Origin: Trypanosoma brucei
Taxonomy: Eukaryota
NCBI GenBank assembly: GCA_000002445.1
Contig: CM000207.1
Location: 1,376,001-1,440,000, forward strand
DNA: 64,000 bases
Direction of reading: 5' to 3'
Below are positions 68-64,000 of this stretch, one piece after another. A model generated the notes under the pieces. The model did not search any database and was not told the DNA's origin. It worked only from the letters and a program-made list of their open reading frames with translations. Numbering within the stretch: the first letter of the stretch is position 1; every line of letters begins with the position of its first letter. A program made the translations under genes and the position numbers.

Positions 68-1198
68 TTAAAAGCATTTGCTGTGTACGATGCTGGGTCC
101 CGACTCGTCGTATTCACTCTTCGTTATCCACATCGACTGGAAGGTTGTTAGTGATGAGAGGATGGAACCGCCAATCCACACGCTATACTTGCGCTCCGGT
201 GGTGCCACAACCTTAGGCTTGATCGATGACGGTGCAAGATTGCTGATCTCCTTTCCAAGTCGCTCAGGTAGGTTCTTGAACATCGTGGTACCGCCAGAGA
301 GCACAATGTTGCCGTAGAGATCACGACGCACGTCAATGTCACACTTGTTGATGGACTGAAAGGTCATCTCATGGAACCCAGGAGCCTCATCAAGTCCAAT
401 GAGAGCAGGCTTAAACAATGCCTCGGGACAGCGGAAACGCTGGTTCCCCACCTGCATAACATTGCCATCAGGAAGTTCGAACGGTTCTTCGCTGACAGAT
501 TTAGCACTGTTCGTCATCTCTTCGTCGAAGTCCAGTGCAACGTAGCATAATTGTTCCTTAATATTCCGCACGATTTCCTTCTCAGCGGAGGTGGTGAACG
601 TCATACCAGTCTCCATTAGGATCTTCATGAGATATTCCGTCAGGTCACGACCAGCCATGTCCACACGACGGATGGCATGAGGAAGAGAATAACCCTCATA
701 TATGGGCACAGTATGTGTCACACCGTCACCAGCGTCGAGAACAATGCCAGTGGTACGGCCAGAAGAATACAGTGACAACACCGCCTGTATTCCGACGTAC
801 ATGGCAGGTACACCAAATGTTTCAAACATAATCTGCGTCATTTTCTCACGGTTTTGCTTGGGGTTCATAGGCGCCTCAGTCAGTAGCACGTTGTGTGACT
901 CAGGGTTGACGCGCAACTCGTTATAGAAGGTATGGTGCCAAACCTTTTCCATGTCATCCCAATTGGTCACAATTCCGTGCTCAATGGGGTACTTCAGCGC
1001 AAGCACACCACGTTTCGCCTGAGCTTCATCACCAACAAACAGTTTCTTGTTTGCACTTCCCATCATCGCTTGCTCATTTTTGGGGCGGCCGACGATGGAT
1101 GGAAATACGTGGCGAGGAGCATCATCTCCGGAGAAACCCGACTTCACCATACCCGAGCCATTGTCACAAACTATAGCAGTTTGTTCCTCGTCCGACAT
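68..1198 (-). CDS. ACT: Actin (376 aa). The ORF-track start at 1234 is a TTG; the true ATG ([16 protein letters not shown]…) is at 1196-1198.
   Basis: Full-length actin over 376 aa; the sequence matches T. brucei actin nearly residue for residue (…[34 protein letters not shown]… ending …[10 protein letters not shown]). I confirmed the ATG by reverse-complementing 1196-1198 (cat). Only one copy lies in the window; the second tandem copy known in T. brucei would sit beyond the low-coordinate edge. Confidence 0.95.
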
Positions 1199-4100
1199 TA
1201 TTTTATGGCAGTAACGAGACCTTACGTAAAGCAAAACTAAATAAGAGCGGAGACTGCAATGCAGAGTAAAAAAAAAACATGAATTTCAGAAGACTTTGTT
1301 TTATAAATGTAACAATTTTTTGTACTGTTATGTCAAAATCTTTTTTCAATTACGGATATTTACGCAGTTATTAACTTGCAGAATGGCGGTAGTTCATAGG
1401 ATGTCATTTGATGGTAACAGCGTTTATTCTTCGCATTCGTACACCTTGATTATTTTGTAGACATCCCTCTTGGCTCATATGTTCGATATCTTATCTTTTG
1501 TTGAACCCAGTGTCGTAGAAACCAGTCGTTTTTTCGTCATCTTAATGTTGGTTAACGTTCCGTGGTAACTTCGTTGTCCCTGGGGGAAAGCGGCCGACAA
1601 TGTATATGTTCTCGTGGCTAGCGTCAACTTTGTGGTCGTTTTTTGTTATTACATCCCCGACGACAAGTGAAAAAGATGGGTGGCGTACGCGGCCGTTTGT
1701 CCTAGTTTAACAGAATGTACCGCCTATTTCACACTTATGGGTATTGACTGAACGCCGCATGCAAGATGTTTTAAACACCTCCAGGTTGAAGCAGTGTTAA
1801 CCAACCACGCCTAATGTTTTGAATGTCACGACCTTTGAGCATTTGGATACTGCAACCAAATAATCAAGCCGCATCATTATGATGTGACTGAGGAAAAAAG
1901 AAACAAAAATGTCCCGCTAAGGTTCCACATGCTTCACCAAAAGCGACCTTAAGCCAACAAGTGGAAGATGACAACAGCATCCTCAGGTTGCGAGAACACA
2001 TTGTTTCGAACACCATGTGTGTTTTCATAGTGTGTAAGTACAGCCCCTTGTCTGATTACCACGAAAACACAAGTGAGTTAGAAGCCTTACCATCTGGTGA
2101 AAGGTCAAACTAACTCATATACGTTCCTCCTTGTCGTAAAACAAAAACAACCAAATCGATTACTAAACAAATAGCAGAACAATCTACAAACAGAGGGAGA
2201 CACTCGGCGGACAATAGTAAATGAATAGTAGTTAGTTGAGAAAAGCATGTGTCCACCTTCCAACACGAAACAGTAGCACACAAGTTGTTGTTACATGAAA
2301 AAAGTGAAGCGAAAATATACGATGCCTCTTTTCCTGCATACAAAACCTGGGTTCCGGATAACCTGGCAGTACAAAAAAAAAAAAGTCGAACTACATCGTG
2401 CGTCAAGCTATCGCTGCAACAAACCCTCCCATATGATATTCAAAACCCATAAGATATATATTTCACCTACATACCGTGGGGAGAAAAAAACCAAATTAAA
2501 CGGGGTCAGGAAGATGCAGGTGGAATACCCGAGTAAATGCGAAGCACCCGGGCACGGTCGTCCCATATTCGAGACACAGTTTTAAAAACAAAAAAGCTGA
2601 TTAGATAGATCACTTTAACAAGGGGAGAATAGCCCATAACCCATTCACACCAGTCGTTCACGTGTAAAAAAAAAAAGGAATAGGTGTGAGAGTTTCTCTC
2701 TTACAAAAAATAAAAATTAAAAAGCAGGGACCCCGATGAGTGCTCTCTGTCCAGTAAGAGTGCCCCAACAAAAAGGTTACATCACAGAAACACAAAGTCC
2801 AGGGAGAAACAGGGTTAACGAGTGCATAGTGTAATACTTTTAAAACATAAAATTCGAGACAAATTGTGATTAATGCATGTTTCAAAAAATAATTTTATTT
2901 CCACCAGCATAAAGAGGAAAGTTCCCCATTCACCTCATGTTACAGCAGCGATAACGCTAGGAAACGCACTGGTCAGTTGATTTCCGTTCCGCTGAGTTTG
3001 ATAAGCTCAGGTGTGAATTAAAAACGTACTCACGACAATGCCGATGGTAAATCGGGTGAATAAAACATCTATGTATGCTCGAAAAACACATGACATTATA
3101 AATACGTCTCCATAGTGCCTACGGAGTCAAATCGAAGGAGGCTGTTGACGGAAATACACTACAAATCGTCAGTTTGAATCATTGCAGCACACCAATGAGA
3201 TCTGAAAGATGCAAAAAAAAAGTATATGTGTTTCTATGGTACTATCCAAAATAATAACTGCAGAACGACGTCTCAACAAAAGAAATCATAATTATAATAA
3301 TGTTAATTTAATAATGACAACATTAACTTCAGTATACTATATTTCATCATGAAGATTTTAAGGGTAGAAATCGGGTACAACACGCATCCGGAAATGTTGG
3401 AATCAACCCTTTATTCCCTCACCTGCATCGTTGTACAAGTTAATACTGAATGCGACATGAAAGTACGTCACCACAGACAACGTCACCTCAAAACGGTACA
3501 GACACTCCCAGCCGGTTGGGTTAAACAACGCCATGCTGAAACTTTTACCCAGAGCAAGTCTACATGCAACATGCTGTTAGGGCACAAAAGTGCATACAAC
3601 GACGTTACAATGATTTAGGTCGATTTTTAAAAATATGTTGCAAATGGTAAAGATGGAACGAGCAGAAACCTTGTCCAATCATCCGAACACTGTTATACAC
3701 CAGAAGTTTTAACAAATAAAAAAAATAACGATCACCCACTTTGCGACAATTATCCCTTAAACCCATATACTTACGGGACAATAGAAGACACATTTCTCTG
3801 AAGTAATCCGAAGTGACTCATCCGCATCATTAGGTCCCCATAAAAACTACAATGGTGGAACCTTCAGAAGTGAACGGGATCATCCACATATGCAAAGCGG
3901 ACGAGTTTAGTCATTCAATTAATCATCGGCATGTACTGTGGACGTCCGACGACCTATTTCCTGTGTTCCGGTGAACATTCAAGTGCAACACGATGCCCAC
4001 TAGAAGATCCCTCAAAATCTTCTTTGCATGGAAAACCCAGAAAAATACTTAACCATCAGAACGAGCGGTGAATAGCGACATCACACTAATTACTCATCTA

Positions 4101-4555
4101 CCACTGGGCAAGGGCGGGTAGAATATTTTTTAAAAAAAATGAATGTGATGGAGCCTGTGCATTACCTTGATGCAGTAAATGGCACGCCCAAGCACTTGCA
4201 CCGAAACGTTCACCACCGAAGAAGGGTATTATACGCGTAACAAATGTGGGCGTCTTTTCGGTGTATCCACCAAAACCTTCTAGCAGTGTACTGTATTCCC
4301 AAAGGGGGAGCAAAGAGAAATGAAGACCGAACTCATCATAGGGAAGCGGATCAATATTGATACATCAAAGTTGGGCTGTTGGTTAAAAAAAAAATGGAAG
4401 TTCACCGACACAAAAGAAATCTACAAAGAGCCACACCACCATCAAAAAAAAAAAGAAGGAAAGTGGTGACATGGGTTTATTTAAGTTTTCTTTACATCAC
4501 CACTCGACAACAACGCGAACTCAAAAAAATGGTGCGAAAGAGGCAGCCAAAAAGT

Positions 4556-4834
4556 TCACCAACGATCGCTCTTGCAGACGGCATCAAGTGGAGCAGATGC
4601 TTCCTTTCCTTCCCGAGTTTTACGCCACCATAGTGTGGCATACGAGGGACCCGGGACACCGATGGGTTTGAATGGCATATTTCCAACCATCCCACTCACA
4701 CTCATGAATCGGAACAGAGTCAACTGGTCGCAGCGAGGGCAGTGGTCATTGCGAAGTGTAAGCTTCCTACAATAGCTGTTCGATACCGCAAATTCGTACA
4801 TGTAACCACAACGAAAGCACGAAAACAACGCCAT
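4556..4834 (-). CDS. Putative small zinc-ribbon-like protein (92 aa), speculative
   Basis: ATG at 4832-4834. Motifs CFRCGYMYEF … x17 … CPRCD (CxxC-x17-CxxC). On the minus strand a polypyrimidine tract (ttctccccgtctggactttctcacttgcgtttgtgttg…ccttcgcctttcaacttctctgttAG) ends in an AG about 12 nt before the ATG, the classic trans-splice acceptor arrangement. I recognised no homolog. It lies in an otherwise gene-free region. Confidence 0.2.
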   Translation of the reverse strand: MALFSCFRCGYMYEFAVSNSYCRKLTLRNDHCPRCDQLTLFRFMSVSGMVGNMPFKPIGVPGPSYATLWWRKTREGKEASAPLDAVCKSDRW

Positions 4835-4950
4835 CCTGCCGATATCCTAACAGAGAAGTTGAAAGGCGAAGGGGAATTTTTTGCTTTCAACACAAACGCA
4901 AGTGAGAAAGTCCAGACGGGGAGAAAGGGGACATACTTCTAAGAAAATGC
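4835..4950 (-). promoter_or_regulatory. Polypyrimidine tract plus AG dinucleotide (candidate spliced-leader acceptor) upstream of small ORF 4556-4834
   Basis: The plus strand is purine-rich (gaaaggcgaaggggaattttttgctttcaacacaaacgcaagtgagaaagtccagacggggagaaagggg), so the minus strand is a long C/T tract followed by AG. Confidence 0.3.
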
Positions 4951-6650
4951 GTGCTTCAGCATCGCCTAGGTCATGCAGGCGCACGCACACATATACGTAG
5001 GCACCGGCAGCGCAAGGGTTTCAGCATAGCCTCCAAGCGACAGAACCAACCAAATACCAACCAACAAACGGTACAAAAGTCACCCATCACCCACCAAAGG
5101 AGCCACACCAACGGTGGCAACTTCTTTCCTCCCTCTCCAGCCCCCCCCCCCTTTAAAAAAAGGGGGGCGCTCATCCTCGCACGATTGATAAAAGGAGGTA
5201 CGTCACACGCCCCCCGAGTGCCCCCGGCCCGACAAATACCCTTCAAAGATAAGACAAAAGACCAGCGGCGAAGTGGGGGGCCACACACACACACCGCAGC
5301 CGAAGCAACCCACCAGATTTTGTGGTGGCCCTCCCGTTCAAAGCGACCTGCACCAGCGCCTTATCATGCTCGACACCCAAACCCGCCGACAGGCGCCGAA
5401 GGACCGACACCGTAACTATGATCCGCATTCCACACCTGAGCCGAACCCCAGTAAAAACAAACAAAACACACGAAAATACGGCCCGCCCACGAGCGGAGGT
5501 GGGTGTGGACGGCCCCGCGGCAACAGATACAACCAGCATCCCAAAAACGCTCACAACAGGCACCGGCTCCGCCCACCACTCACGACGAGCCGGTCCGCAC
5601 ATGAGGTTAGTGGAAGAAAAAAAAACAACGGTCCAGCACAACGCCACTAGCACCAACACCAGGCAGGGCCAAACCTTTGACGAAGCAGTGCTCCACGGGC
5701 ATGGGACCCACGCGAGCCTCCGGTTTCTCGCAAAAGTAAGAGGTCATAAACATTGGCCCCACAGCGGGGCCCCAGCCGCGGTGCCAAAGCAGCGACAGGC
5801 CAATCCCCACACACGCGGAGTCCCCACCGCCACTGGCGTACGAACCTTTAATTGTTGCGAATGCGGCGGCCAGCCGCCCCCATGCACCCCGGGCCCCGAG
5901 CATCAGAGCAGCCGGATGGCCGCCCAGCATCGGAGAGAAGGCCGGTGGCAACACCACCCACTGTCCCTGGGGATGGGGGAGGGACAATGAACGAAATACC
6001 CATTCAACACTTTCCTCAACGCGTGGAGAACGGTGACGGGACCAAATGCAAAAAAAAAAAAGAAGAGCGCACACTAACCACATGATGCGGGCGCACGGCG
6101 TCGGCGGAACCGCCTGCACGGGGTGGGGGCATAGCGGCAGGGAATGGCGTAGGCGTCGCGAAAGATCTAAGGGCAATAAGATGTGTTGAAGTCAAACCTG
6201 CCGAACGCCTGTTCAATCGCGAAGACCAGACAACATTCGTGTCAACATATTTCCACAAATCAACTATCCTTAACCAATAACGGCTGAGGACGTTGAATTC
6301 GACGGAGGGCCGCTCATTGTGGTGTGGACATGAGTTCCCGCAGCCGACCGTGGAACCGAGCCACCGCTTCTGGAAAAGCAGTCGAATGCGCGGTTCGATG
6401 GCGCCCGAGAGGGGAAAAGAAGATCACCGGAGTGCAGCTCTTCCCTCGCATTACTTAGACACTGTATGAAGTAGGAGGGGCTGTGGTGGAGGCGGAAGAA
6501 AGGTAGCAGCAGCGGATTCACCGGCAACACACACAGGGCAAACGTCAGCGGAGGCCGCGACGGGCCCATTCTGGTCACAACCTCCAGCGCATCATTCACA
6601 CGTAGCAAGACTGACCCGAACAGCTTGGCAATAAAGCGGCGTGCAAGAAT
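4950..6650 (-). promoter_or_regulatory. GC-rich island, CA-rich on the plus strand and GT-rich on the transcribed minus strand; candidate GT-rich Pol II initiation element or non-coding island
   Basis: Long runs of caaccaaataccaaccaacaaacgg…, ccacacacacacaccgcagccgaagcaaccc…, aaaacaaacaaaacacacg…. The many overlapping ORFs on both strands (5322..5990, 5607..6176, 5243..5659) lack stop codons because of GC content and have no protein-like composition. Confidence 0.3.
5149..5169. repeat. Homopolymer hairpin C11-TTT-A7-G6
   Basis: ccccccccccc ttt aaaaaaa gggggg read directly. The C-run and G-run are complementary (stem up to 6 bp, A/T-rich loop). Further C6/C5 tracts at 5200-5230 give G-tracts on the minus strand. 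Confidence 0.8.
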
Positions 6651-9600
6651 CGCAGAAAAGATACGGGTGGTTCCTAAGGCGGAGCGGGTGGGAGAAGCTA
6701 AACCATTTTATAATCCACACTAAGAATCAAGGCACAAAAAAAGCATCTCCCGTGGGGGAAGAGCGTGTTGACGACATTTTCCCGGCCAAAGGGCCCAACC
6801 TTATCGACCCAACAGCAGAAAAACTTTCTAGCACCTCGAAGAAGCAACAACGGTGGGCAAGGTGAACTCAGCGGTGAAAGAAACGACCCCAAGGCAACAC
6901 GAATACAAAACAGAAAAACTGGAAGAGGCCGAGGCAGGAATGTGAGACCTGGCTGCCGCGGCACTTGCACCACGGACGTTGAGCACATTAGTTGTAGGCG
7001 TCAAAGAGCAGAAGCCAACAAAACGGCGGTAAGCAGATGCTGTTGCGGAAATGTACTAAAAGAGGCTCAGAAAGATACGGCGAGCTCCGAGGGTGGAATT
7101 ATCAGGGGTAACAAACTATAAGTCTAAGTTGTTTGATTACGGAGGAGCGGAGGTTGACACAGAGTGACGTATACGCTGGAACTGCACCTAGAGAAGATTG
7201 CACACACGGAAAGAAATTGTAGAACCTTGTTTGGAAAGAGAGGAAATGCTTCGTGAGGTTTTATAATCACCGCGTGGAACACGGCGGAATACCCGGGCGG
7301 GGGTGAGAAGGGCGGTAAAACATCACTCTCGGGAGACAGAAAAAGCTTGCAAAAGAGGCGGCGGCAGCCCGAGAAGCGGCCCTTAGAAGTGTTTTCTCCA
7401 AGTCGATGAGGGGTTGATTGGCAGTACACTGAAAGGTCACTTTGATCGGTTGCTTACATCAAAGAAACCGCCGTTTATGCCAAAGCACCAAGCAGTAGAC
7501 ACCAAGTTTTTGACGTTTGGTGAAACAAGGTGGAGAAATGGGGAGACAGCAACTGCTTTCATGGATCGTGCAAGAGCGACCGGCTCAATGGATCGTCGGG
7601 GGATCACTCACTGTGGTTTTAAATCGCTGCGATGCGCATCTCCGCTTAGCGAGACGGATAGGACAGTTGCCGCATAACCGAAAATCCAAAATGAAGATGA
7701 GCAACGCGTAGCCAGGAGATTTCCTCGACCTTAGGGGTGTGGCGGGAATTTGTCCTCGAACCACTTCTGGTCGCTGTGATAATGGAAGCATAATAAGAGG
7801 CACTGATCGGAGCACAGGGATTAAGCATACCTTCCTTGCAAACGGTCCAATCGTCATACGCGCCGGCAGAGGTCTAAAAAAATTTTGAGCAAACGCCACG
7901 GAGGGAGCCTCGGTTGTGTGCCAATGAACGGTCGAAAAGACCTTTCGTGGAAATTTCGGCTGAAGAGGAATGCACAACGTCTCGGTGCTGCCGCGCAGCT
8001 GAATGGACTTTTGAGTGCCTGAGATGCTGGTAAACAAGCCGAATGCACCTAATATATCGAGCCTTACTTCACAACTGGTTAAGATCGCCGTGAAGCGTGT
8101 TCAAAAAATTTTAAGCCACCAAATCGAAACCTCCCAAGCCGTTTACAGATTCCTCAGTGTGGTAGGGTCGTGGGTACGACATTCCGTGGCTGTTTTCATC
8201 TCGCGTTGGCCCCATCGCACGGCAGGGACGGGAAAGAACTACGGTGTTTGGATGTCTTTGAGCGTGGTTGGGGAAACCCCACTGCTGCAGAGCGCTACTC
8301 GAGTTACATCATAGCAAGCGCGTTGCGAAAGGCGCGGAGAGGGGAGGCCCTCTTTTTAAGTTCCCCCGCTTATTGCCGCAACTGTGACGCGCAACGTTGC
8401 ATTTTGTGCTAATGTGGAGGCTGTGGGACAGGAAAATGCGACGTTGCGAAGCCGCACCCTGTCGTATGCGAAGCCACCTGGTTTTCCGAGTTGACAGCCG
8501 CTCGCCACGAACGGAGGGCCCTCTTTATTGTAAAACCCAAACAAGGAAGCAGAGTTCAAGACGTGAAAATGGGGGAACACCGGACGGTCGCGTCGGGAGG
8601 CCGCTGTGAGCGACAAATACGCTCTCCAGCGGAAACATCGACCTCGTCATCAACCGACAGTGCGGCGCCTTTGGTTTGCTTTGTTTCACAAGGCGTGCAT
8701 GCGCACATCGCAGCCGCCACGCAGCCTTTTTCTTCGCACAGGTTTTGTTGGTGCGGAATGAGCGCCCAAAAAGGTTGGTGCACGTAGTAATGGCCAAACT
8801 TAACCGAGGTCTACGCAGTTCGAAGGCGCCGCACATATATGCATATGCGTTGCGCCATGTTTCCCTAAAGTTGTCCAGTGGGTGAGCGTTTTTCTTTTTT
8901 TTTTCTTCACGTATGATGGCCGCGCCTGACTACCGCTGGCTTTGGATTTGGGGAACCGGCGCGCACTAACGAAATGCTGATCGCCGTTGCGTTCGGTGTT
9001 CTCGTTGACTTGTGGGATGTTTACGAACGCGAACTCTGTGGAAAGTTGAAATAATTAAGACGAAAATGCCTTATGGCAGCGCTGCGGATGATCAGGGAGC
9101 TACAGAAATGGAGGAAGAGGAGAATGTGATCGGGAATTCTTTCTTTCCCTTTAGTGACGTACACGGATGGTGGTTGGGAAATTGTTGGGATACGCTTTAG
9201 GAACGCCTCTGGCGGTGTCCGAAGATTTTTTTTTTCGTGCTGGACGAGGCGGGGGATAACTACACCAATAACTTTTTTTTTTTAAAGGAAACAGTTCGGA
9301 AACGGAAGTATCTCTATAACTCAATATCAGGGTACGACAAAAATCTGAACGCGCGGGGTAAATATAAGGGGGTGCGGTCTTCCTCTCAACTCATCACTTC
9401 CCCCTGTTTGTTTTACTGCTGCCTTCACTCCATGACAACGTCGGTATCATAGGGCAAAAATGCAAACATGTACTCTCCCGTATGGATGGGCGATCATGGA
9501 GCACATCACCGCACGCGATTGATTATTTTCCACCACCAAAACGAAAAAAAAGGGGGAAAAAAGACATGCGTAGCGCACAGTGTGTGTGAACACAGCGTTG

Positions 9601-11054
9601 AGTTCCAAAAGTTCCGCTTCACCACCTCATTGCGTTTTCTTTTCTCCCCCTTTCCTCAAACCCTCCAGATGCACGAAGATATCGGAATGAAAAGTAAGAG
9701 AGGGTAGAGACGTCCGATATGTGGCCCTGCAAACGCTAAATGCGACACGGCCCACAAAATGTGATAATATTCAGTTTTGTCACAATATACTGAGATCTCT
9801 CATACATTGGTCCTTTACCGCTCGAACCAATGGTGTGTGCCTTCATTTCCACTTTAGGCTTCACTGCCGTTATTCCGGTGATGATCAGAAGTTTGTATGA
9901 CTCCAGCACTGCGGATAATTCGCATTAGATATTTTACAGTAATTAGTGAGGCATTGATGACCATGTTGCCTTTAAGAACTGTACAGCATATTAGCAACAA
10001 TGACCTTATTCGAAAGATGGAGGGTATACCGCCCGTTCCTCTTCCCCTTCTCCATCCTTGTTGTGGGCAGAAAATAGCCTTGTGACCTGCTTCCAACAAG
10101 ACCTTTCATCTCCTACTGACTGATAAGGTGTTAACCGTAATGCACCGCTGCCAATATCAAAAATAAAATTAAAAAAAACCGCCATAGCCCTGTTCAATCC
10201 ACCTTTGCGCTATGGAAGGAAATTTGTCATCATCGTGCACGTTAAAACTTTTCCTCCCGATCCATAGCACCTGCATTTGCGAAGCCAGTACCATTGGGAA
10301 TTTAAAATAGTTTCATCACCCCTCCCCGCCTCGGTAAAACACCCAAACGGACCACGCATTGGCGCGTGAGGCGGACTCCAACAAGTCACAGACGTACACG
10401 CACATACATACATGAGAGTAAATGAGGCGCAAACCTACTTCTGTCTATCTTCACTTCCTTGGTTTTTAGCTTCAATAACCATGCGTGCTCCAGTCAATCG
10501 ATGCAGCAGTGACATTTTCTTGAATCAGCCTCGTATCACTGAATTGTGCAGCAAATGTACGCGCGAAACGCTGGGGATACCTCCGCATAAAGACATAATC
10601 GTCTCGTCCATGGGATCGCTGCGTGAGACTTTTTCGTGCGTGGGCAAGAGCTCTGCGGCAGAGCAAAGGCACGGAGGTGCAAATGCGATGTTTAACTGCT
10701 TTCATATTTATCAATGTCCTTCACATCTAAGCCATATCACCAAACTTTATCCTAACTGCTAAATGTATACGTGTGAACTCAAATAAACGATGATGTGGGA
10801 ACAAAACGGCAAATCTCCATTGGACCGTATTACATCAGGAGAAAGTTACCAAGTGAGTGTCGTAGAGCATTTCGAAACACTATTAGTGCTATTATTACAA
10901 AAACCTCACGTATTGTGTTGATGACGTGGTCATAATGACCAGTATTCTTGTTCCCCTTTCCCCCCTCCCCAATCCACCACACCGCTTTCTTTCTTTTCTT
11001 TACGTAGGGGTGAATCGCAACAGCCAAGTCCCGGTGAAACACCGATCGAGCTAT

Positions 11055-12338
11055 TCATTTCCGTTTCTTATTTTCCTCCTTAATGGCATCGAGCCGTTGG
11101 GCGAGTGGTGGATGAGAGTAGTGCAGCGCAGCGAAGAGCGGATCGGGTGTAAGCAAGTTCTTATTCTCCTTGTGTATAACCATCAGTCCTCTTATAAGCG
11201 GTTCACCATACCCAGAACTAACGGCGTACCGATCCGCCTGGAACTCAAATTGACGAGTCACGAGTGACACAAGATAACCCAGGAGTGTGTTAATGGGCTC
11301 CAAAAACACTTGGCTGAACAGCTCGAAACCAATGAGCGGATTGGCATCGCTGAACCCAAACTGCTTGTACAAGTCAGTGTTGAAAATTACGGCCTTTGCG
11401 CCGTATGATATACACCACGTTTGAGCAACCATAAAACCGAAGAAGAATTTGTCGTGGGAGTTCTTCCAGTGGCCGAGCTCGTGGCAAAGAACGGCAAGCA
11501 GCGCGTCGTGATCATCCTTCGTCTGCTCAACGATCGTATCATACAAAACAATGTGCTTCGACCAAAAACCATAGAAGTACGCGTTGCTGTGACCCGAGCG
11601 CCGCGAACCATCAACTTCGTATAGTTTCTTCAAAGGAAACTTGTGCTTTTCAGCGAGTGCATATATCTTCTTCCCCAACTCACCGTCCTTCGGTATCGGC
11701 GTGTACGTGTTGAATAGGGGCTGGATGAAAGTGGGGTAAACGAAGGTGAAAATGGTGATCAGGCCCGTCGCACCGAGGAAAAAGTAAAATGGGAAATCCT
11801 CGCCGAACAGTTCCACCACCTTGAGGATGAGCCCACTGGTCAGAACGTGCAACAGAGTCAGGCGAAGCAGAAAATACTTGGCAACGTCCAGAAAGAATTC
11901 CTTGCGCGTCATTTTGTTGAACCCATGTTTCTCCTCGATCACAAATGTTGAGTAGTATTCAAAAGGAAGGCTTATGAGTGTCGTTAGCACATCCGTTGCG
12001 ACGGCGTAAACGTAGCAATGTGAAAAGGAGCCCGTAGCCCCTGGTAATAGTTGGCCAAGGGATCCGTACAACTTGGCGGGCAGTTTTGCCAGCAGGGAGA
12101 CGTTGCTTATGACAATGTCCTTTACGTGCAACAAGATTGAAAAGCTGAGTTTCTCCCTTTCGTACTCCTGAGTGGTACGGAACTCCTTCTCTTCCACGAC
12201 GCCGACAAGGTGTTCAGGCATCTTTGCATTCGCGTATGCTTTACGCTGCCGGCGTTGAAGGTAAAGGTCCCACAGCGCCAGCGCATTGAGGCCGATCAGC
12301 GCCGTACCGTAAAATGTCATCCCACCCCACGCAACCAT
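11055..12338 (-). CDS. STE24: CAAX prenyl protease 1 (STE24/ZMPSTE24, M48 zinc metalloprotease), 427 aa
   Basis: ATG confirmed at 12336-12338. HExxH zincin motif LCHELGHW; multi-TM N-terminal half; length and layout typical of Ste24. The C-terminal …HYSHPPLAQRLDAI… is the conserved M48 tail. Confidence 0.88.
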   Translation of the reverse strand: MVAWGGMTFYGTALIGLNALALWDLYLQRRQRKAYANAKMPEHLVGVVEEKEFRTTQEYEREKLSFSILLHVKDIVISNVSLLAKLPAKLYGSLGQLLPGATGSFSHCYVYAVATDVLTTLISLPFEYYSTFVIEEKHGFNKMTRKEFFLDVAKYFLLRLTLLHVLTSGLILKVVELFGEDFPFYFFLGATGLITIFTFVYPTFIQPLFNTYTPIPKDGELGKKIYALAEKHKFPLKKLYEVDGSRRSGHSNAYFYGFWSKHIVLYDTIVEQTKDDHDALLAVLCHELGHWKNSHDKFFFGFMVAQTWCISYGAKAVIFNTDLYKQFGFSDANPLIGFELFSQVFLEPINTLLGYLVSLVTRQFEFQADRYAVSSGYGEPLIRGLMVIHKENKNLLTPDPLFAALHYSHPPLAQRLDAIKEENKKRK

Positions 12339-31221: not shown

Positions 31222-32209
31222 TCCTTTCCACTGCACTTCAAACCATTGTGAGTTCCGCACAAACAAAGTGTGCAAACGGATATTTATGCGCGCAGTAAAA
31301 TAGTAACAAGCCGCGATGAAAGGGAATGTAATGTGAAGTATCAAGGCCTCAACCACAAAGCAGAAATCAAAAAATGACAACCTGAGAGATAGCGAGTTAA
31401 TGCAGGTCTCTAGGGTCACAGAGGCTGAGCCCAACAGCTGCCTTCGGCAGAAAATCAACACGATAATTAGAAGATTAATACCAACAAAAAAGAGACCACC
31501 TCTCCAGCTCGCCTCAGGGTATCAAAAGCGACAACCGCTGCACACACACACACACGGCACAGGTGTGTGAATGACCAGCTTCGCTTATACTAGTCATAAA
31601 TGACTAGAAGCCAGTGGTTTCCGTTTCCATAAACCCCGGGTCTTCCCTCTTCCCCTGCTCAATGTATATCTATATTTCATTCTTCGGTACACCATAATCA
31701 AAAACATGTAATTTCACCCTTCCCCTCCCTGTCATCAGTATCGTTAGAGCTGCCGCACCCCTCCGCAAAAGAGTTTATGCAAATTACATGTACACCTTTC
31801 CCCCCTTAAGTACCGATTTTTCACAAGGGACGTTACTCTTTGAGAATTTCACCTGCGATACACCTGTATAGACGCGCCCACATCATACTTCTCGCGCACG
31901 CACTTAACTTTGTTTGGTTATGCTCAACAGGCTAGGGGGGAACTACAAACAGGTACACGTCAAAACAACCTTCCTTGCAGTCTGAGTTTTGATAGAGAAA
32001 TGCCACAGAGGAAAAGGGAAGGGGGGGGGGAGGGCACTGAAGTTGTTATCATCAATTAGAGCAAAAATCTGTGAACGTAACACAGAGTCGCGGTCAAACA
32101 AACAAAAATGATGGTTCGTTCCCCCCTCATTAATGAGAGAAAACGGGAAAAGTCGCTTTTGTATTCCCCTGTGAAGTTGTCGTATCTTAGAGTGCATTCC
32201 TACGCCGTT

Positions 32210-44668: not shown

Positions 44669-44702
44669 AAACCCCCCCCCACACACACACATACACACAC
44701 AC
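44669..44702. repeat. C9 homopolymer followed by a (CA)n microsatellite
   Basis: aaacccccccccacacacacacatacacacacacgc read directly, intergenic. Confidence 0.85.
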
Positions 44703-53137: not shown

Positions 53138-55544
53138 ATCCTTTTTTTTTTCTTTCCCTTCCTTCACTCTTTTTTATTTAACCTAATTTTCCCTCTCTTT
53201 TTTTCTTTTTCCTGCTGTGTGCTTTTGCGAGTTACGTATAGCTAAACTTGTACCTTTATCTTTAACAACAACAAAAACAAACTCCTTTCCTTTTAAGCAG
53301 AGATATACTTTGATTTCTTTCCCACCCTTTTTATTACTCGACTACTTATGGTTTGAGAAAGTGTTCTCACTAAAATAAAATAAAACAACAACACCAATAA
53401 CGACGTAAGGTTGAAGACAAATAAGGCAAATAAACTTGCTAACCTTGCCTATTCAGTTATCAGTTACCGCAATCCAACAGAGGTTTTGGCTGTAAAGAAA
53501 GAAATTGCGGCCAACGGGGAAAAAAGAGGAAGAAGAAGAAACAAAAAAAAAAGGACATAACAGAGCAGAATAGTACAACGCAATGCAAAAGATCGATCAA
53601 TGAAAAACATACTTAAAATACAAGTGGAACGCTACAGTTATCGAGTTATTTTATACGAGAGGCGAGGAATTATCGAAAAGAAAAAAAACAAGAAACCTCT
53701 CCCTCTTTTTTTCCATCACATTTCGTTTCCTCCTTTCTCTCTCTTTCTCTCTTTCTTCCTCTTAAAGCGAAAGTGATTAAGAGGGTGCAAAAGTGTAAAC
53801 AACCCACTACGCACTATCGTATTTGAGAGAGAAAAAAAAAAGGAAAAATACAAATGCAGAATTATATATTTGTAAATTGAAATAAATAAACAATTATATA
53901 AATATAATAATAATAATTGTCATTATTATCATTATTACTGTTATTTTTTTTTTTGTAAAGAGTAGCATAACGTACTAATTCATTTTCTCCCTTCATCGAA
54001 GGGTCGCACATTTCAGTGAATGTACGTGACCTTTAATTAAAAACAACAACAACAACAACACACAAACACGCAAACACAAAAAACAAAACAAAACACACAT
54101 ACACAAATAAATATAAATGGGCACATGCATTTTTATGTAAACCTCATATGCTCTTCATGAACATCAGCCGGTTTGGGCGCACACCACAAACTTCGCTCAC
54201 AGTTGAGCGCATTCCACCGGTACGGTAACATTTTGTGCGTACGCATACGAAAGGGAAGGACAAAAGAGATGAAGGGAAGAGTGTTGTCGGAGGGAAAAGG
54301 AAAGAAAGAAAGAAAGAAAAAAAAATGGAACTTATAAAATTTCTTGTATCACCGCAACACGTAGCAGGAAGATAATGCCTCCGTACGCTCAGAAGTGAAA
54401 ACTCGTTATGATAAAAACACGCATGAAAATAAACAGGTTTCGGGAGAAAGGTGTGGGAAATAAAAGAAAAAAACAACAACAAAGACAACACTCCACGTTC
54501 GTTTCATACTCACATGTTGTGGGGGGGGCGGAGGGGTTTAAACCCCTTTATTTCCTATTAGGATCATACATCAGTAATTTAAAAAAAAAAGAACAAAAAA
54601 AGAAGGGGAGGAGGCGAGCTATTATGCATTAAAAGCGAACAAAAACAAATATGCCGCTGGAAATGCGTGTAAGATAACCTTTCTATTCTTCCCTCTGACG
54701 ACTCTGAATAGGAAGAAGGTGATGGGTGAGGGTGCTCACGGGCGTAGCTTTTTCCTCAGTGGTGTTAAATCATAAAAGTAAATTGAAAAAACTTTTTAAA
54801 AAAAGGACCACGAACACGAAGGAGAGAGGAGGGGGGGGGGAAACAAAGTAAAAAAGACGGGGGTGTCCCATCCGATACAACTCAACCCTACTGCACGGGA
54901 ATGCAGACGCATATAGATACACGTGCATCCATGAGTGCAGTTACAAAACAAGAAATAAATAAAATAGATGACAACAAAAGGGAAAAATAAACAAAAAATT
55001 ATGCCTTAACCGGGAAAAATGGTACCGAGGGTAAATTTTTTTTTTAAAAGGACAAAAGACAAAAGCATGGCGCAGCCGATAGATTTCCAGAAACACGGAA
55101 AAGAAAGAAGGGAAGCGCGTTGAACCGAAGGTCGCTGAAAGGAAAACAAAAATAAAGAGAAAATAAGCAAAGTTAAGGAACGCCGCCCGAGGAGTGAAAA
55201 AGTAGCCTAGGCCACTTTAATGCGTCGGACCTTTTCGCTCATGCTTCTCTCATGTACATAACCGAGTGATCACGTAATGAAACCCCTTCCGTGTGTAGAT
55301 TTGACAAAAATTTACATAAGTGTAATCAGTTGCTCTTCCCTCCCGTGTAGCACGTGTACTATCGTTGTTAGAAGAACAAGACGAAATAATAACCAAAAAA
55401 AAGATGAAAAAGGAATATAGAGAAAGGAAAGAAAGATGGGGAGATAAGGTGACGCACCGTCATGGCGGCACCACTGTACCTGAAAACTCCCCGCTCTTTT
55501 TTTTTTAACTATAACTATCACCATCACTATCAAAAGCATTATTC

Positions 55545-62271: not shown

Positions 62272-64000
62272 CGGTGCCCGCACCAAAAGAAAATCTCTCC
62301 GCTGCGGACTGTACTGCTTGTATGCACTACTACCTTTTCTCTACCGCTGGCGCTGCAACTGCAGTTATTTGCTTATTATTCCCTGCGCCTCGCGAGCCCC
62401 CTCTTACTTGTAATTCCGCTCCCAATCTGAGGCACGAGCACCCCGAGGAATAACAAGCGAAAACCTAAGTAACACTGTAATTACGTATATATGTATATGT
62501 ATAAACACTAGTAGTTCACCTTCGCCGAACCTTTCTTCTTTTCTTTTCCTTCCTTTCCCTTTCCTCGTTTATTTACTTTATTATTATTTTCTTCTTTTGC
62601 GGATATCCGTCCCGCACGTCTTTTAGGTAGGGGAGATGAGGATTTGCTTTGCCACTCCTTTGTTGTTTTTTTTTGGTATTTGCTTCCTCCTTCTTTACGC
62701 TCGGCTCCTTTTGTTTCCCCACTCTATCCTTCTAAATAAATAAGTATGATAATAATTATAACAACAATAACAATAATTATTACTCTTGTATGTATGAATG
62801 GTTAACCTGATTCTTTTTTCCCCCTTTCCCTTGCCTTTTTTATCTTCACCCTGTGTGCCACTAATATACAGCACCAATATAATTTAAATTATATGAGTTG
62901 TATATATATATATATTAGTGCACAAACAGATGTGAAAAGTGGATTGCCGTTTTGAACCGGTTTGTATATATGTATGTGCACGAATAGCTACCGACAAGTC
63001 TATTGTCTTGTCTTGTCTTTTACTTTTACTTTTCTTTTTTTTTCTTTTTCCCCCTCCGAATGTCACGTGTCAAAGGAAGGAGTTACTTCGAGGGGGTCCC
63101 GATCCTCATATCACCCCACAGAAGGGCGTTCGTGTCTGTATCCGTGTGTGTTTGTGTGACGGGGTGGGGGGAGGGGAGAGAATAGAGAAGAGGAAGAGAG
63201 TGTAAAAAAAAAAAAGATAAAATAAAATAAAAGGGGAGTATTGTAATCGGCAGCACTGACACAACCACTACGTGCCGAGCGACTAGTTTCCTCCCCTCAG
63301 GGGTAAATTCCTTTAAGAATCGAAAAGTAAGTTTGAAATTGCAGAAGAAAGGTGGAGAAGAGAAAAAGGAGGAGGAAAAAAAAAGAAGAGAAAAGAGAAA
63401 CAAAACTGATGTACGGCATATGTACAAAAAAGAAAAAGAAAAAGTGTAGAGAAAGTATTAGTAGGGAAAACGAAACATAAAAAAAAGGAAGGAGAATGCA
63501 ATGAACAGCACGCGAACCAAGGCGTACCGAAAAAAAAAAAACATATGTATGGGGGGAGGAACACGGCAGTAGCGGTCCGTGAATGATGTAAAGTTACGAT
63601 AATCGAAAAAAAAAACAATATAGCTGGAATAAAATAAAATAAAAAAATAGAAATCAATAAAACAAGTCGATAACGAGAGAGAAAAAAAATTAATTGTACC
63701 TAACTTATAATTCAATAACAACACGAAGTGACTCTCAGACTTTTATTTATTTATTTACTTTGAACTTTGGCATTATAACAATTTCTGTTTTTGCTTTTAC
63801 TTTAAAAGTTTGCTTCTCCTCTTATACTTTTTTTGCTTTCCGTTACACTGTTGAGGCTATATTTCCTCACTTTCTCTTGTTTTAATGTTCCCCCACTCTT
63901 TCATATCGTACCTTTGTTGACGGCCATTTTTTTTTTTCTTTCCTTCTCAAAAAAAAAAGCATGAAATCACATCCATAGGCACATATAAATAAATATATAT

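What the first reader, a model, noticed from the sequence alone, without database searches (positions are those of the whole stretch)
4950..6650. A 1.7 kb GC-rich island that is GT-rich on the transcribed strand, a candidate GT-rich Pol II promoter element
The plus strand is strikingly C/A-rich (caaccaaataccaaccaacaaacgg…, ccacacacacacaccgc…, aaaacaaacaaaacacacg…, caccaacaccaggcagggccaaacc), so the sense strand of this minus-oriented array is G/T-rich. Published work in T. brucei has shown that GT-rich elements at transcription start regions can drive Pol II initiation and H2A.Z deposition. The island sits in the middle of the gene desert. All ORFs in it overlap one another in several frames on both strands and have no protein-like composition, so it is not coding.
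Basis: partly seen in the sequence, partly recalled or inferred. Interest (0 to 1): 0.5.

Follow-up and report, generated by a model that had tools for sequence, protein, structure and literature searches.

The report
Known actin-locus Pol II start region
The GC-rich, G/T-skewed island is real and most likely marks the place, about 4 kb upstream of the Trypanosoma brucei actin genes, where RNA polymerase II restarts transcription inside a long one-directional gene array, but this start region was already mapped in published work, so the finding is correct rather than new.

Summary
The window is T. brucei TREU927 chromosome 9, 1,376,001-1,440,000. Two gene ends match published poly(A)/UTR coordinates exactly. 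All genes are on the minus strand.

The island is the window's extreme for GC and for plus-strand C+A. Every 500-bp window with coding-strand G+T >= 0.60 and GC >= 0.55 starts between 4901 and 5601. The skew is strong only in about 4950-6030; the rest is GC-rich and T-poor without G>C.

Kolev et al. 2010 end one Pol II unit at the CAAX protease gene (11055-12338) and start the next, typed 'Internal', at the actin gene (68-1198). Their transcript tables leave 4847-6799 without mature RNA, which is almost exactly the island. The first trans-spliced transcript begins at 4846 and encodes a conserved 92-aa protein.

The island holds 7 of the window's 16 coding-strand clusters of G-rich TSR-enriched 10-mers (Wedel et al. 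2017), P about 2e-7, and none on the other strand. It is not a repeat, a decayed gene or a known ncRNA.

In T. cruzi and T. melophagium the same unit starts at a divergent strand-switch region. These two and T. theileri have a GC peak at the same position but no sequence similarity.

Verdict: real, interpretation supported, already known (the 1991 'actin promoter'; the internal TSS mapped in 2010).

The parts
4950..6034 (-). GT-rich, GC-rich core. Coding-strand G is 0.32-0.39, G+T 0.56-0.69, GC 0.57-0.63. This is the inferred initiation zone, the 5' end of the transcription start region of the actin unit.
   Evidence: for composition. for G-type TSR 10-mer clusters at 5139, 5281, 5805 and 5952 on the minus strand, with none on the plus strand.
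5141..5151 (-). G11 run on the coding strand, the longest coding-strand G run in the window. It lies inside a G4-type motif (5131-5151) and forms half of a C6-T7-A3-G11 palindrome (5141-5170).
   Evidence: In Wedel 2017 Dataset EV1, G10 is the most biased 10-mer at the 5' fifth of start regions: 132 on the coding strand against 17 on the non-coding strand.
5282..5294 (-). (GT)6 tract followed by G on the coding strand. It matches the TSR-enriched words GTGTGTGTGG and GGTGTGTGTG.
6035..6799 (-). GC-rich, A-poor (coding strand) flank without G>C skew. It lies between the poly(A) site of the last upstream transcript and the GT-rich core. Possible termination or buffer zone (inferred).
   Evidence: Weaker 10-mer clusters at 6338, 6361 and 6526. 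Poly(A) site of Tb9.NT.102 at window 6800.
4847..4935 (-). [quoted passage not shown] The mapped splice-acceptor site is 4846.
   Evidence: Sequence read. Published site at 1,380,846.
4403..4846 (-). Tb9.NT.56, the first processed transcript of the unit. Its ORF at 4556-4834 encodes a conserved 92-aa CxxC...CxxC protein.
5243..6083 (-). Annotated 'hypothetical unlikely' ORFs Tb09.211.0640 (5243-5602) and Tb09.211.0650 (5607-6083). These are spurious ORFs produced by the composition.
   Evidence: Kolev Table S2 lists them as giving no transcript. No Pfam hit.
6800..10777 (-). Tb9.NT.102, a long low-abundance processed transcript (0.51 RNA per cell) with no ORF above 116 aa. It forms the tail of the upstream unit.
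11055..12338 (-). CAAX prenyl protease (Peptidase_M48), Tb09.211.0680, the last annotated ORF of the upstream Pol II unit.
68..1198 (-). Actin gene, Tb09.211.0630, the first annotated ORF of the 'Internal' Pol II unit.
1334..4331 (-). Three processed transcripts without a conserved ORF, lying between the 92-aa gene and actin: Tb9.NT.53 (1334-2202), Tb9.NT.54 (2287-3271) and Tb9.NT.55 (3360-4331).
   Evidence: EMP70 occupies this position in other trypanosomes but has left no trace here.

Best explanation
The island is the upstream (5') part of an internal, non-divergent RNA polymerase II transcription start region on T. brucei chromosome 9. This is the start of the unit that contains a small conserved 92-aa gene, three non-coding transcripts and the actin genes.

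Proposed mechanism:
1. Pol II arriving from the upstream unit produces the CAAX protease mRNA and the long Tb9.NT.102 RNA, which is polyadenylated at 6800.
2. New initiation occurs, dispersed over several hundred bases, in the G/T-rich (coding strand), GC-rich core at about 4950-6030. This core includes a G11 run and (GT)n tracts.
3. The first trans-splice acceptor at 4846 defines the first mature mRNA.

The element works through base composition and strand asymmetry rather than a fixed motif. This is the 'dispersed GT-rich promoter' model, in which such tracts favour H2A.Z-containing, unstable nucleosomes and directional initiation.

Shown: location, composition, strand bias, 10-mer enrichment, the transcript gap, a published TSS call for this gap, and positional conservation of a GC peak at the start of the orthologous unit in three other trypanosomes.

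Inferred: that initiation occurs within the island itself; that GT-richness is causal; and that the right-hand third acts as a termination or buffer zone.
For: Identity of the locus.
- The actin is 100% identical to 'actin 1, T. brucei' and groups with Q38E94_TRYB2.
- The ORF ends at window 68 and 11055 equal the published poly(A) site plus 3'UTR length for Tb09.211.0630 and Tb09.211.0680, with a single offset of 1,376,000.

Published TSS.
- Kolev 2010 Table S14 lists the units Tb09.211.1400->0680 and Tb09.211.0630->0040, both on the minus strand and typed 'Internal'.
- Their text says 5'-triphosphate reads were enriched at all such sites, which had been predicted from histone marks.

Transcript map.
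- No mature RNA is listed between the poly(A) site at 6800 and the splice-acceptor site at 4846.
- Kolev states that RNAs lacking either the spliced leader or a poly(A) tail, which they detected at suspected unit starts and ends, were excluded from the transcript counts. Such a gap is therefore what one expects at a start site.
- The AG acceptor and pyrimidine tract were verified on the sequence.

Composition.
- The combination of GC and G+T on the coding strand is unique in 64 kb.

Motif test.
- 12 G-type Wedel 10-mer hits, forming 7 independent clusters out of 16 in the window, lie in 3% of the sequence (P = 2.2e-7). There are none on the opposite strand.

Comparative evidence.
- In T. melophagium and T. 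cruzi, the 92-aa gene is the first gene of a unit at a divergent strand-switch region.
- In T. melophagium, T. theileri and T. cruzi, the 200-bp window of highest or near-highest GC in each roughly 20-kb locus lies 380-570 bp upstream of that gene (percentile 0.993-0.999).
- It is GT-skewed in T. melophagium and T. theileri.

History.
- Nilsson 2010 refers to 'the actin promoter' as the only Pol II promoter then identified for protein-coding genes.
- The reference Ben Amar 1991, 'The actin gene promoter of T. brucei', exists.
- From my memory only, it was placed about 4 kb upstream of the actin genes. That corresponds to window position about 5200, inside the core.
Against: - No chromatin (H2A.Z, H4K10ac), Pol II ChIP or TSS-seq signal could be inspected at this locus. 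Table S14 resolves the TSS only to the 9.8-kb gap.
- The GT skew covers about 1 kb, not the full 1.7 kb.
- The GC patch in T. cruzi is not GT-skewed (G+T 0.46-0.54), so GT-richness is not universal at this start.
- There is no sequence conservation across species, and divergence within the T. brucei group is no lower than in the flanks. It includes an 82-bp indel. Purifying selection on the sequence is therefore not demonstrable.
- Wedel reports that all twelve 1.8-kb fragments of two start regions drove transcription, and that activity depended on genomic context. A compositional island is therefore neither strictly necessary nor sufficient.
- Later work argues for sequence-specific promoters (cited). 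I could not read that paper, so I did not test its motifs.
Confidence: 0.8

Rival explanations
1. The TSS of the actin unit lies elsewhere in the gap, for example just downstream of the CAAX protease gene, so that Tb9.NT.102 would be the first transcript of the new unit. On this reading the island is only an unusually composed spacer inside the start region.
For: Table S14 uses only annotated ORFs, so it cannot place the TSS within 1235-11054. Start regions are 5-10 kb wide, and every fragment of two tested regions had activity.
Against: - Coding-strand-biased G-rich 10-mers peak in the 5'-most fifth of start regions. Here they cluster in 4847-6799, and no G-type cluster occurs in 6800-11054.
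- A 1954-nt distance between the poly(A) site at 6800 and the next splice-acceptor site at 4846 is far above the usual coupling distance (median 142 nt). This argues for a discontinuity there.
- In T. melophagium and T. cruzi, the unit begins immediately upstream of the 92-aa gene at a divergent strand-switch region.
Confidence: 0.1
2. The island, or at least its right-hand part at about 6035-6800, is mainly a termination or insulation zone for the upstream unit. In this view the skewed composition is a consequence of transcription-associated processes at a unit boundary (R-loops, G4 structures, mutational bias), not a cause of initiation.
For: - The upstream unit is listed as ending at the CAAX protease gene.
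- Kolev describes very low-abundance spliced RNAs without poly(A) at unit ends.
- Tb9.NT.102 is long and rare.
- The G>C skew on the coding strand stops at about 5850-6030.
- The island diverges as fast as its flanks.
Against: - Synthetic GT-rich sequences built from these 10-mers were sufficient for directional transcription and H2A.Z deposition, so causality has direct experimental precedent.
- The GC peak is also present at the orthologous divergent start regions of T. melophagium and T. cruzi, where no upstream same-strand unit needs terminating.
- This rival is partly compatible with the main explanation rather than exclusive of it.
Confidence: 0.2
3. The island is a decayed gene, a retroelement fragment or a member of a repeat family, and its composition is inherited from that ancestor.
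For: Several long overlapping ORFs exist, and two are annotated as hypothetical genes.
Against: - No Pfam match for the ORFs or for stop-tolerant six-frame translations at E <= 1, apart from one chance-level hit at E = 0.12.
- Single copy within 64 kb.
- No direct, inverted or tandem repeats beyond A/T runs.
- No Rfam match at E <= 1.
- No remnant of the ancestral neighbouring genes (LRR protein, methyltransferase, EMP70).
- The annotated ORFs gave no transcript.
- Not tested: similarity to trypanosome-specific repeat libraries (ingi/RIME/SIDER) or to the rest of the T. brucei genome, which the tools do not hold.
Confidence: 0.03
4. The island is primarily a replication-origin or ORC-binding site, or another chromosomal landmark located at a unit boundary.
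For: From general knowledge, not tested here: T. brucei ORC1/CDC6 sites and origins map to boundaries of transcription units.
Against: Nothing in the sequence specifically indicates an origin. This would coexist with the start-region role, not replace it.
Confidence: 0.05

Closest known systems
Non-divergent ('internal') Pol II transcription start regions of T. brucei (Siegel et al. 2009; Kolev et al. 2010, PMC2936537)
   Same: It lies inside a head-to-tail gene array. It is listed by gene ID as the start of an 'Internal' unit. The first trans-spliced RNA starts just downstream. No tRNA gene is involved.
   Different: Nothing differs in kind. Here the start can additionally be traced to an ancestral divergent strand-switch start that is retained in T. 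cruzi and T. melophagium.
GT-rich dispersed promoters of T. brucei (Wedel et al. 2017, PMC5579346)
   Same: G/T-rich on the coding strand only. It contains the signature words (G10, GTGTGTGTGG, GGTGTGTGTG, GTGTGTGGGG, GTGGGTGGTG). It sits at the inferred 5' end of the start region. No conserved motif is present.
   Different: It was not one of the regions they assayed (regA and regB are on chromosome 10). Activity and H2A.Z deposition are untested for this fragment. It is about 1 kb of natural sequence at GC 0.57-0.63, not a 210- or 416-bp synthetic concatenate.
The 'actin gene promoter' of T. brucei (Ben Amar et al. 1991, Nucleic Acids Res 19:5857)
   Same: Same locus and same direction. It lies upstream of the first actin gene. 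From memory it was placed about 4 kb upstream, which corresponds to window position about 5200, inside the core.
   Different: I could not read the paper. The exact fragment and its overlap with 4950-6030 are therefore unverified.
CpG-island-type dispersed promoters of metazoans
   Same: A GC-rich island of about 1-2 kb in AT-richer surroundings, with broad initiation and no TATA box or initiator motif. Wedel et al. draw this analogy.
   Different: Strong strand asymmetry and directional output. It serves a polycistronic unit, with no gene-specific regulation known. No link to DNA methylation.

Membership tests
Internal (non-divergent) Pol II transcription start region of T. brucei | Lies between two same-strand gene groups within a unidirectional array | tested here: met
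   All ATG-started ORFs of at least 150 aa lie on the minus strand. The gap is flanked by the CAAX protease gene and the actin gene, both on the minus strand.
Internal (non-divergent) Pol II transcription start region of T. brucei | Listed as a unit boundary supported by 5'-triphosphate RNA enrichment and histone marks | tested here: met
   Literature look-up, not raw data. Kolev 2010 Table S14 gives Tb09.211.0630 as the first ORF of an 'Internal' unit and Tb09.211.0680 as the last ORF of the preceding one. Resolution is the 9.8-kb gap.
Internal (non-divergent) Pol II transcription start region of T. brucei | Enrichment of H2A.Z, H2B.V and H4K10ac over 5-10 kb, with Pol II peaking at the 5' edge | not testable with these tools
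   No ChIP-seq tracks or coordinate tables were available.
Internal (non-divergent) Pol II transcription start region of T. brucei | First trans-spliced mRNA begins shortly downstream, and no mature RNA spans the start | tested here: met
   Poly(A) site at 6800, splice-acceptor site at 4846, nothing listed in between. AG and pyrimidine tract confirmed on the sequence.
GT-rich dispersed promoter element (Wedel 2017) | Enrichment of the published 10-mers on the coding strand relative to the non-coding strand | tested here: met
   17 hits against 0 for all words in 4950-6650. For G-type words, 12 hits against 0, with 7 of 16 independent clusters in 3% of the window, P = 2.2e-7.
GT-rich dispersed promoter element (Wedel 2017) | Position at the 5' end of the start region | tested here: inconclusive
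   Consistent with the transcript gap and with synteny. The extent of the H2A.Z domain is unknown here.
GT-rich dispersed promoter element (Wedel 2017) | Orientation-dependent reporter activity and induced H2A.Z deposition | not testable with these tools
   This is an experimental criterion.
Sequence-specific Pol II promoters (Cordon-Obras 2022) | Presence of the defined promoter motif(s) | not tested
   The paper is not held, so the motifs were unavailable to me.
Trypanosomatid retroposon or repeat family | Multiple copies, or reverse-transcriptase/endonuclease remnants | tested here: not met
   Single copy in the window. No Pfam match in six frames. No repeats. A genome-wide copy number was not testable.

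The most novel reading that the evidence does not exclude
The T. brucei 'internal' start is the surviving half of an ancestral divergent strand-switch promoter. A rearrangement replaced the divergent neighbour (LRR protein and methyltransferase genes) with the tail of another unit. The start site and its GC-rich, mostly GT-skewed composition persisted at the same distance from the first gene across T. brucei, the T. theileri clade and T. cruzi, even though all sequence similarity was lost. If this holds generally, internal start regions are fossil strand-switch promoters, and base composition rather than motif is the selected trait.
Probability: 0.45. Interest if true: 0.4.

Novelty: already known. 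Interest (0 to 1): 0.22.

Why it matters
The result shows that a reader working from raw sequence alone can locate a Pol II start region in a trypanosome, an organism long thought to lack recognisable promoters, from composition and strand skew. For the biology, little is added. The start upstream of the actin genes was proposed in 1991 and mapped genome-wide in 2009-2010, and GT-rich elements were described in 2017.

The modest new points come from the comparison with other species:
- The same unit start is a divergent strand-switch region in T. cruzi and T. melophagium.
- A GC peak, but no sequence, is conserved at a fixed distance from the first gene.
- The T. brucei island is about three to five times longer than its counterparts.

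This supports composition-based specification of start sites and offers a well-defined natural fragment (4950-6030) for testing it.

Tried and rejected
- tRNA scan and Rfam scans found nothing (gathering threshold on the whole window; E <= 1 on 4400-7000). No Pol III gene or known ncRNA explains the boundary.
- Pfam found no family for the island ORFs or for the six stop-tolerant frames. The decayed-gene idea was rejected.
- Self-BLAST, direct and inverted repeat search and Tandem Repeats Finder found only A/T runs. The repeat idea was rejected within the window.
- tblastn with EMP70, the LRR protein and the methyltransferase from T. melophagium and T. cruzi found no remnants of the ancestral neighbours in the window.
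- Cross-species blastn of the upstream regions found no significant similarity, except between the close relatives T. melophagium and T. theileri.
- Short Logan contigs carrying homologues of the 92-aa gene (L004-L008) had too little upstream DNA and unknown species, so they were not used.
- The Phytomonas and Porcisia actin loci do not reach the start of the unit.
- Not held: Ben Amar 1988 and 1991, Siegel 2009, Cordon-Obras 2022 and one review.
- The remaining Wedel 2017 datasets and the Staneva 2021 supplements contain no start-region coordinates.
- The bacterial promoter/terminator scanner and the phage, plasmid and E. coli collections were not used, because they are irrelevant to a kinetoplastid chromosome.
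Full report
WHERE WE ARE

All ATG-started ORFs of at least 150 aa in the window lie on the minus strand, the signature of a kinetoplastid polycistronic array. The ORF at 68-1198/1234 (minus) is an actin (Pfam PF00022, E = 7e-139). It is 100% identical to 'actin 1 - Trypanosoma brucei' and clusters with Q38E94_TRYB2. The ORF at 11055-12338 (minus) is a CAAX prenyl protease (Peptidase_M48).

Kolev et al. 2010 (PMC2936537) give the following in Tb927_09_v4 coordinates:
- Tb09.211.0630 (listed together with actin A, Tb09.211.0620): poly(A) site at 1,375,842 and a 226-nt 3'UTR.
- Tb09.211.0680: poly(A) site at 1,386,897 and a 158-nt 3'UTR.

These place the two ORF ends at 1,376,068 and 1,387,055. 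Those are window positions 68 and 11,055 with a single offset of 1,376,000. The window is therefore T. brucei TREU927 chromosome 9, 1,376,001-1,440,000.

THE OBSERVATION

The island is real. Region 4950-6650 has GC 0.58 and plus-strand C+A 0.60, with T at only 0.135. For both 900-bp and 1700-bp sliding windows, the maxima of GC and of C+A across the whole 64 kb fall here.

On the coding (minus) strand, every 500-bp window that combines G+T >= 0.60 with GC >= 0.55 starts between 4901 and 5601. None occurs elsewhere. The 26 ordinary intergenic segments of the window are T-rich but not G-rich on the coding strand: G is 0.17-0.26 and GC 0.37-0.52. In the island, G reaches 0.378. Within this sample, comparable islands do not turn up in ordinary UTRs.

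Two corrections are needed.
- The G>C skew on the coding strand holds only from about 4950 to 5850-6030. The remaining third is GC-rich and T-poor on the plus strand but not GT-skewed.
- The 'desert' is not empty (see the transcript map below).

The overlapping ORFs on both strands exist. They are a by-product of composition. They match no Pfam family as ORFs or as stop-tolerant six-frame translations. Two of them are annotated 'hypothetical unlikely' genes (Tb09.211.0640 and .0650) for which Kolev et al. found no transcript.

WHAT PUBLISHED MAPS SAY ABOUT THIS SPOT

Kolev Table S14 lists two consecutive minus-strand Pol II units on chromosome 9: Tb09.211.1400->Tb09.211.0680 and Tb09.211.0630->Tb09.211.0040. 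Both are typed 'Internal'. The boundary between them is exactly the 9.8-kb gap between the CAAX protease gene and actin. The text states that 5'-triphosphate RNA reads were enriched at all sites predicted from histone marks, including internal sites.

Their novel-transcript table, converted to window coordinates, gives the following, all on the minus strand:

| Transcript | Window coordinates | RNA per cell |
|---|---|---|
| Tb9.NT.102 | 10777->6800 | 0.51 |
| Tb9.NT.56 | 4846->4403 | 3.0 |
| Tb9.NT.55 | 4331->3360 | 2.11 |
| Tb9.NT.54 | 3271->2287 | 1.09 |
| Tb9.NT.53 | 2202->1334 | 1.37 |

The 1954-nt distance between that poly(A) site and the next splice-acceptor site contrasts with the usual tight coupling (median 142 nt). 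Kolev et al. also explain that RNAs lacking either the spliced leader or a poly(A) tail, which they detected at suspected unit starts and ends, were excluded from their counts. A blank interval is therefore what one expects at a start.

On the sequence, an AG dinucleotide (4848-4847) preceded by a pyrimidine-rich tract sits exactly at the mapped acceptor. Tb9.NT.56 encodes a 92-aa CxxC...CxxC protein (ORF 4556-4834) that Kolev et al. already showed to be conserved in L. major and T. cruzi.

TEST AGAINST THE GT-RICH PROMOTER DEFINITION

Wedel et al. 2017 (PMC5579346) found the following:
- Initiation peaks at the 5' end of H2A.Z domains.
- 10-mers at least sixfold biased to the coding strand are most numerous in the 5'-most fifth of start regions and are dominated by G and T runs.
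- Synthetic concatenates of such words drive orientation-dependent transcription and H2A.Z deposition, in a context-dependent way.

I scored the window with their 157 words (Dataset EV1). Hits are 158 on the coding strand and 56 on the other. The island has 17 against 0.

T-rich words hit every intergenic region, so I restricted the test to the 67 words with at least four G. Seven of 16 independent coding-strand clusters lie in 4847-6799, which is 3% of the window (binomial P = 2.2e-7). None lies on the opposite strand. They include:
- the window's longest coding-strand G run (G11, 5141-5151), where G10 is the most biased word in their data (132 against 17);
- GTGTGTGTGG and GGTGTGTGTG at 5281-5295;
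- GTGTGTGGGG at 5805;
- GTGGGTGGTG at 5952.

WHAT IT IS NOT

- It is single-copy within the window.
- It has no direct, inverted or tandem repeats beyond A/T runs.
- It has no tRNA.
- It has no Rfam match, even at E <= 1.
- It has no protein-family signal.

COMPARISON WITH OTHER TRYPANOSOMES

I used the 92-aa protein and actin as anchors.

T. melophagium (L001) has the order 92-aa gene -> EMP70 -> four actin genes on one strand. The two genes immediately upstream, an LRR protein and a methyltransferase, are on the opposite strand. T. cruzi (three assemblies, L014-L016) shows the same layout. In T. theileri (L017), a methyltransferase gene on the opposite strand lies upstream of the 92-aa gene (found by tblastn at 6146-6421), EMP70 and actin. 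An assembly gap hides the LRR position.

In T. melophagium and T. cruzi, the actin unit therefore starts at a divergent strand-switch region.

In T. melophagium, T. theileri and T. cruzi, the 200-bp window with the highest or near-highest GC of each roughly 20-kb locus lies 380-570 bp upstream of the 92-aa ATG. GC is 0.64-0.73 against locus medians of 0.37-0.45, at percentile 0.993-0.999.
- It is GT-skewed on the coding strand in T. melophagium and T. theileri (G+T up to 0.72-0.74).
- It is not GT-skewed in T. cruzi (0.46-0.54).
- T. melophagium also has a mirror-image block facing the divergent unit.

There is no sequence similarity between T. brucei and the others, or between T. cruzi and the T. 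theileri clade.

Within the T. brucei group (TREU927, T. b. gambiense DAL972, and assembly CM010680), the island diverges about as fast as its flanks, at 1.5-3% per 500 bp. TREU927 lacks 82 bp at about 5971, and homopolymer lengths vary. No remnant of the LRR, methyltransferase or EMP70 genes is detectable in the T. brucei window.

Position and composition are conserved, while sequence is not. This is the pattern expected for a dispersed, composition-specified start region. It also suggests that the T. brucei 'internal' start is the retained half of an ancestral divergent start.

HOW IT MOST LIKELY WORKS

1. Pol II from the upstream unit transcribes through the CAAX protease gene and Tb9.NT.102.
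2. Between about 6800 and 6030 lies a GC-rich zone with no GT skew. It may serve termination or insulation (inferred).
3. In about 6030-4950, the coding strand becomes strongly G/T-rich (G11, (GT)6 and many GGGG/GTG words). By analogy with Wedel's synthetic elements, this favours H2A.Z nucleosomes and directional, dispersed initiation (inferred).
4. The first acceptor site at 4846 yields the first mRNA (shown).

My confidence that the island is the 5' part of the start region is about 0.8. My confidence that GT-richness itself is causal is lower, about 0.5. All fragments of two tested start regions had activity and context mattered. The T. cruzi patch is not GT-skewed. A sequence-specific promoter model also exists that I could not test.

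RELATION TO WHAT IS KNOWN, AND NOVELTY

The locus is the textbook 'actin promoter' case. Nilsson et al. [quoted passage not shown] The primary reference, Ben Amar et al. 1991 (NAR 19:5857), exists but could not be read.

My recollection that it lay about 4 kb upstream of the actin genes is unverified memory. It would place the promoter at window position about 5200, inside the core.

The internal start was mapped genome-wide in 2009-2010, and the GT-rich concept dates from 2017. A 2025 paper restates it as the current view. The finding is therefore correct and already known. The only modest additions are the synteny and composition comparison and the delimitation of a roughly 1-kb natural GT-rich core.

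VERDICT

Novelty: already known. Interest: 0.22.

Noticed in passing
window 4556-4834 (minus); transcript 4403-4846: A conserved 92-aa protein with two CxxC pairs (zinc-ribbon-like) is encoded directly downstream of the island. Gene callers missed it in several assemblies, and only five relatives were found in the 5.8-billion-protein search. It is nevertheless 71-86% identical across T. melophagium, T. theileri and T. cruzi, and is the first gene of its unit in T. melophagium and T. cruzi.
   Followed up: partly
window 1334-4331 (minus); L001 10851-12584; L017 7034-8767; L016 about 7339-8888: An EMP70 (endomembrane protein 70) gene lies between the 92-aa gene and actin in T. melophagium, T. 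theileri and T. cruzi. The T. cruzi copy is seen by tblastn (E = 7.5e-40) but is not called as a gene. No trace remains in T. brucei, where the interval yields three processed transcripts (Tb9.NT.53-55) without a conserved ORF.
   Followed up: partly
window about 5971; also 5141-5170, 5617-5625 and 6050-6061: TREU927 lacks an 82-bp GC-rich segment that is present in T. b. gambiense DAL972 and in assembly CM010680. The lengths of the G, C and T homopolymers in the island also differ between strains.
   Followed up: yes
window 5141-5170 (minus strand): A C6-T7-A3-G11 palindrome can form a 9-bp hairpin or cruciform (DNA fold -11.5 kcal/mol, z = -2.35). The G11 arm also belongs to a G4-type motif (5131-5151).
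   Followed up: partly
window 44672-44702 (coding strand): A compact G9-(GT)n cluster carries 13 overlapping TSR-type 10-mers in a short intergenic region. It is not at a listed unit boundary. Short GT/G tracts therefore occur away from start sites, whereas the kilobase-scale island does not.
   Followed up: no
window 32021-32030 and 54831-54840 (plus strand): G10 runs lie on the non-coding strand, opposite to the orientation that is enriched at start regions.
   Followed up: no
window 53168-55544 and 62287-64000: These are unusually long, AT-rich intergenic stretches (GC 0.37) with dense T-rich tracts on the coding strand. No ORF of at least 150 aa is present. Their content was not examined.
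   Followed up: no
window 6800-10777 (minus): Tb9.NT.102 is a 4-kb spliced and polyadenylated low-abundance RNA with no ORF above 116 aa. It fills the space between the CAAX protease gene and the island. GC skew on the plus strand is positive here, so the coding strand is C/T-rich.
   Followed up: partly
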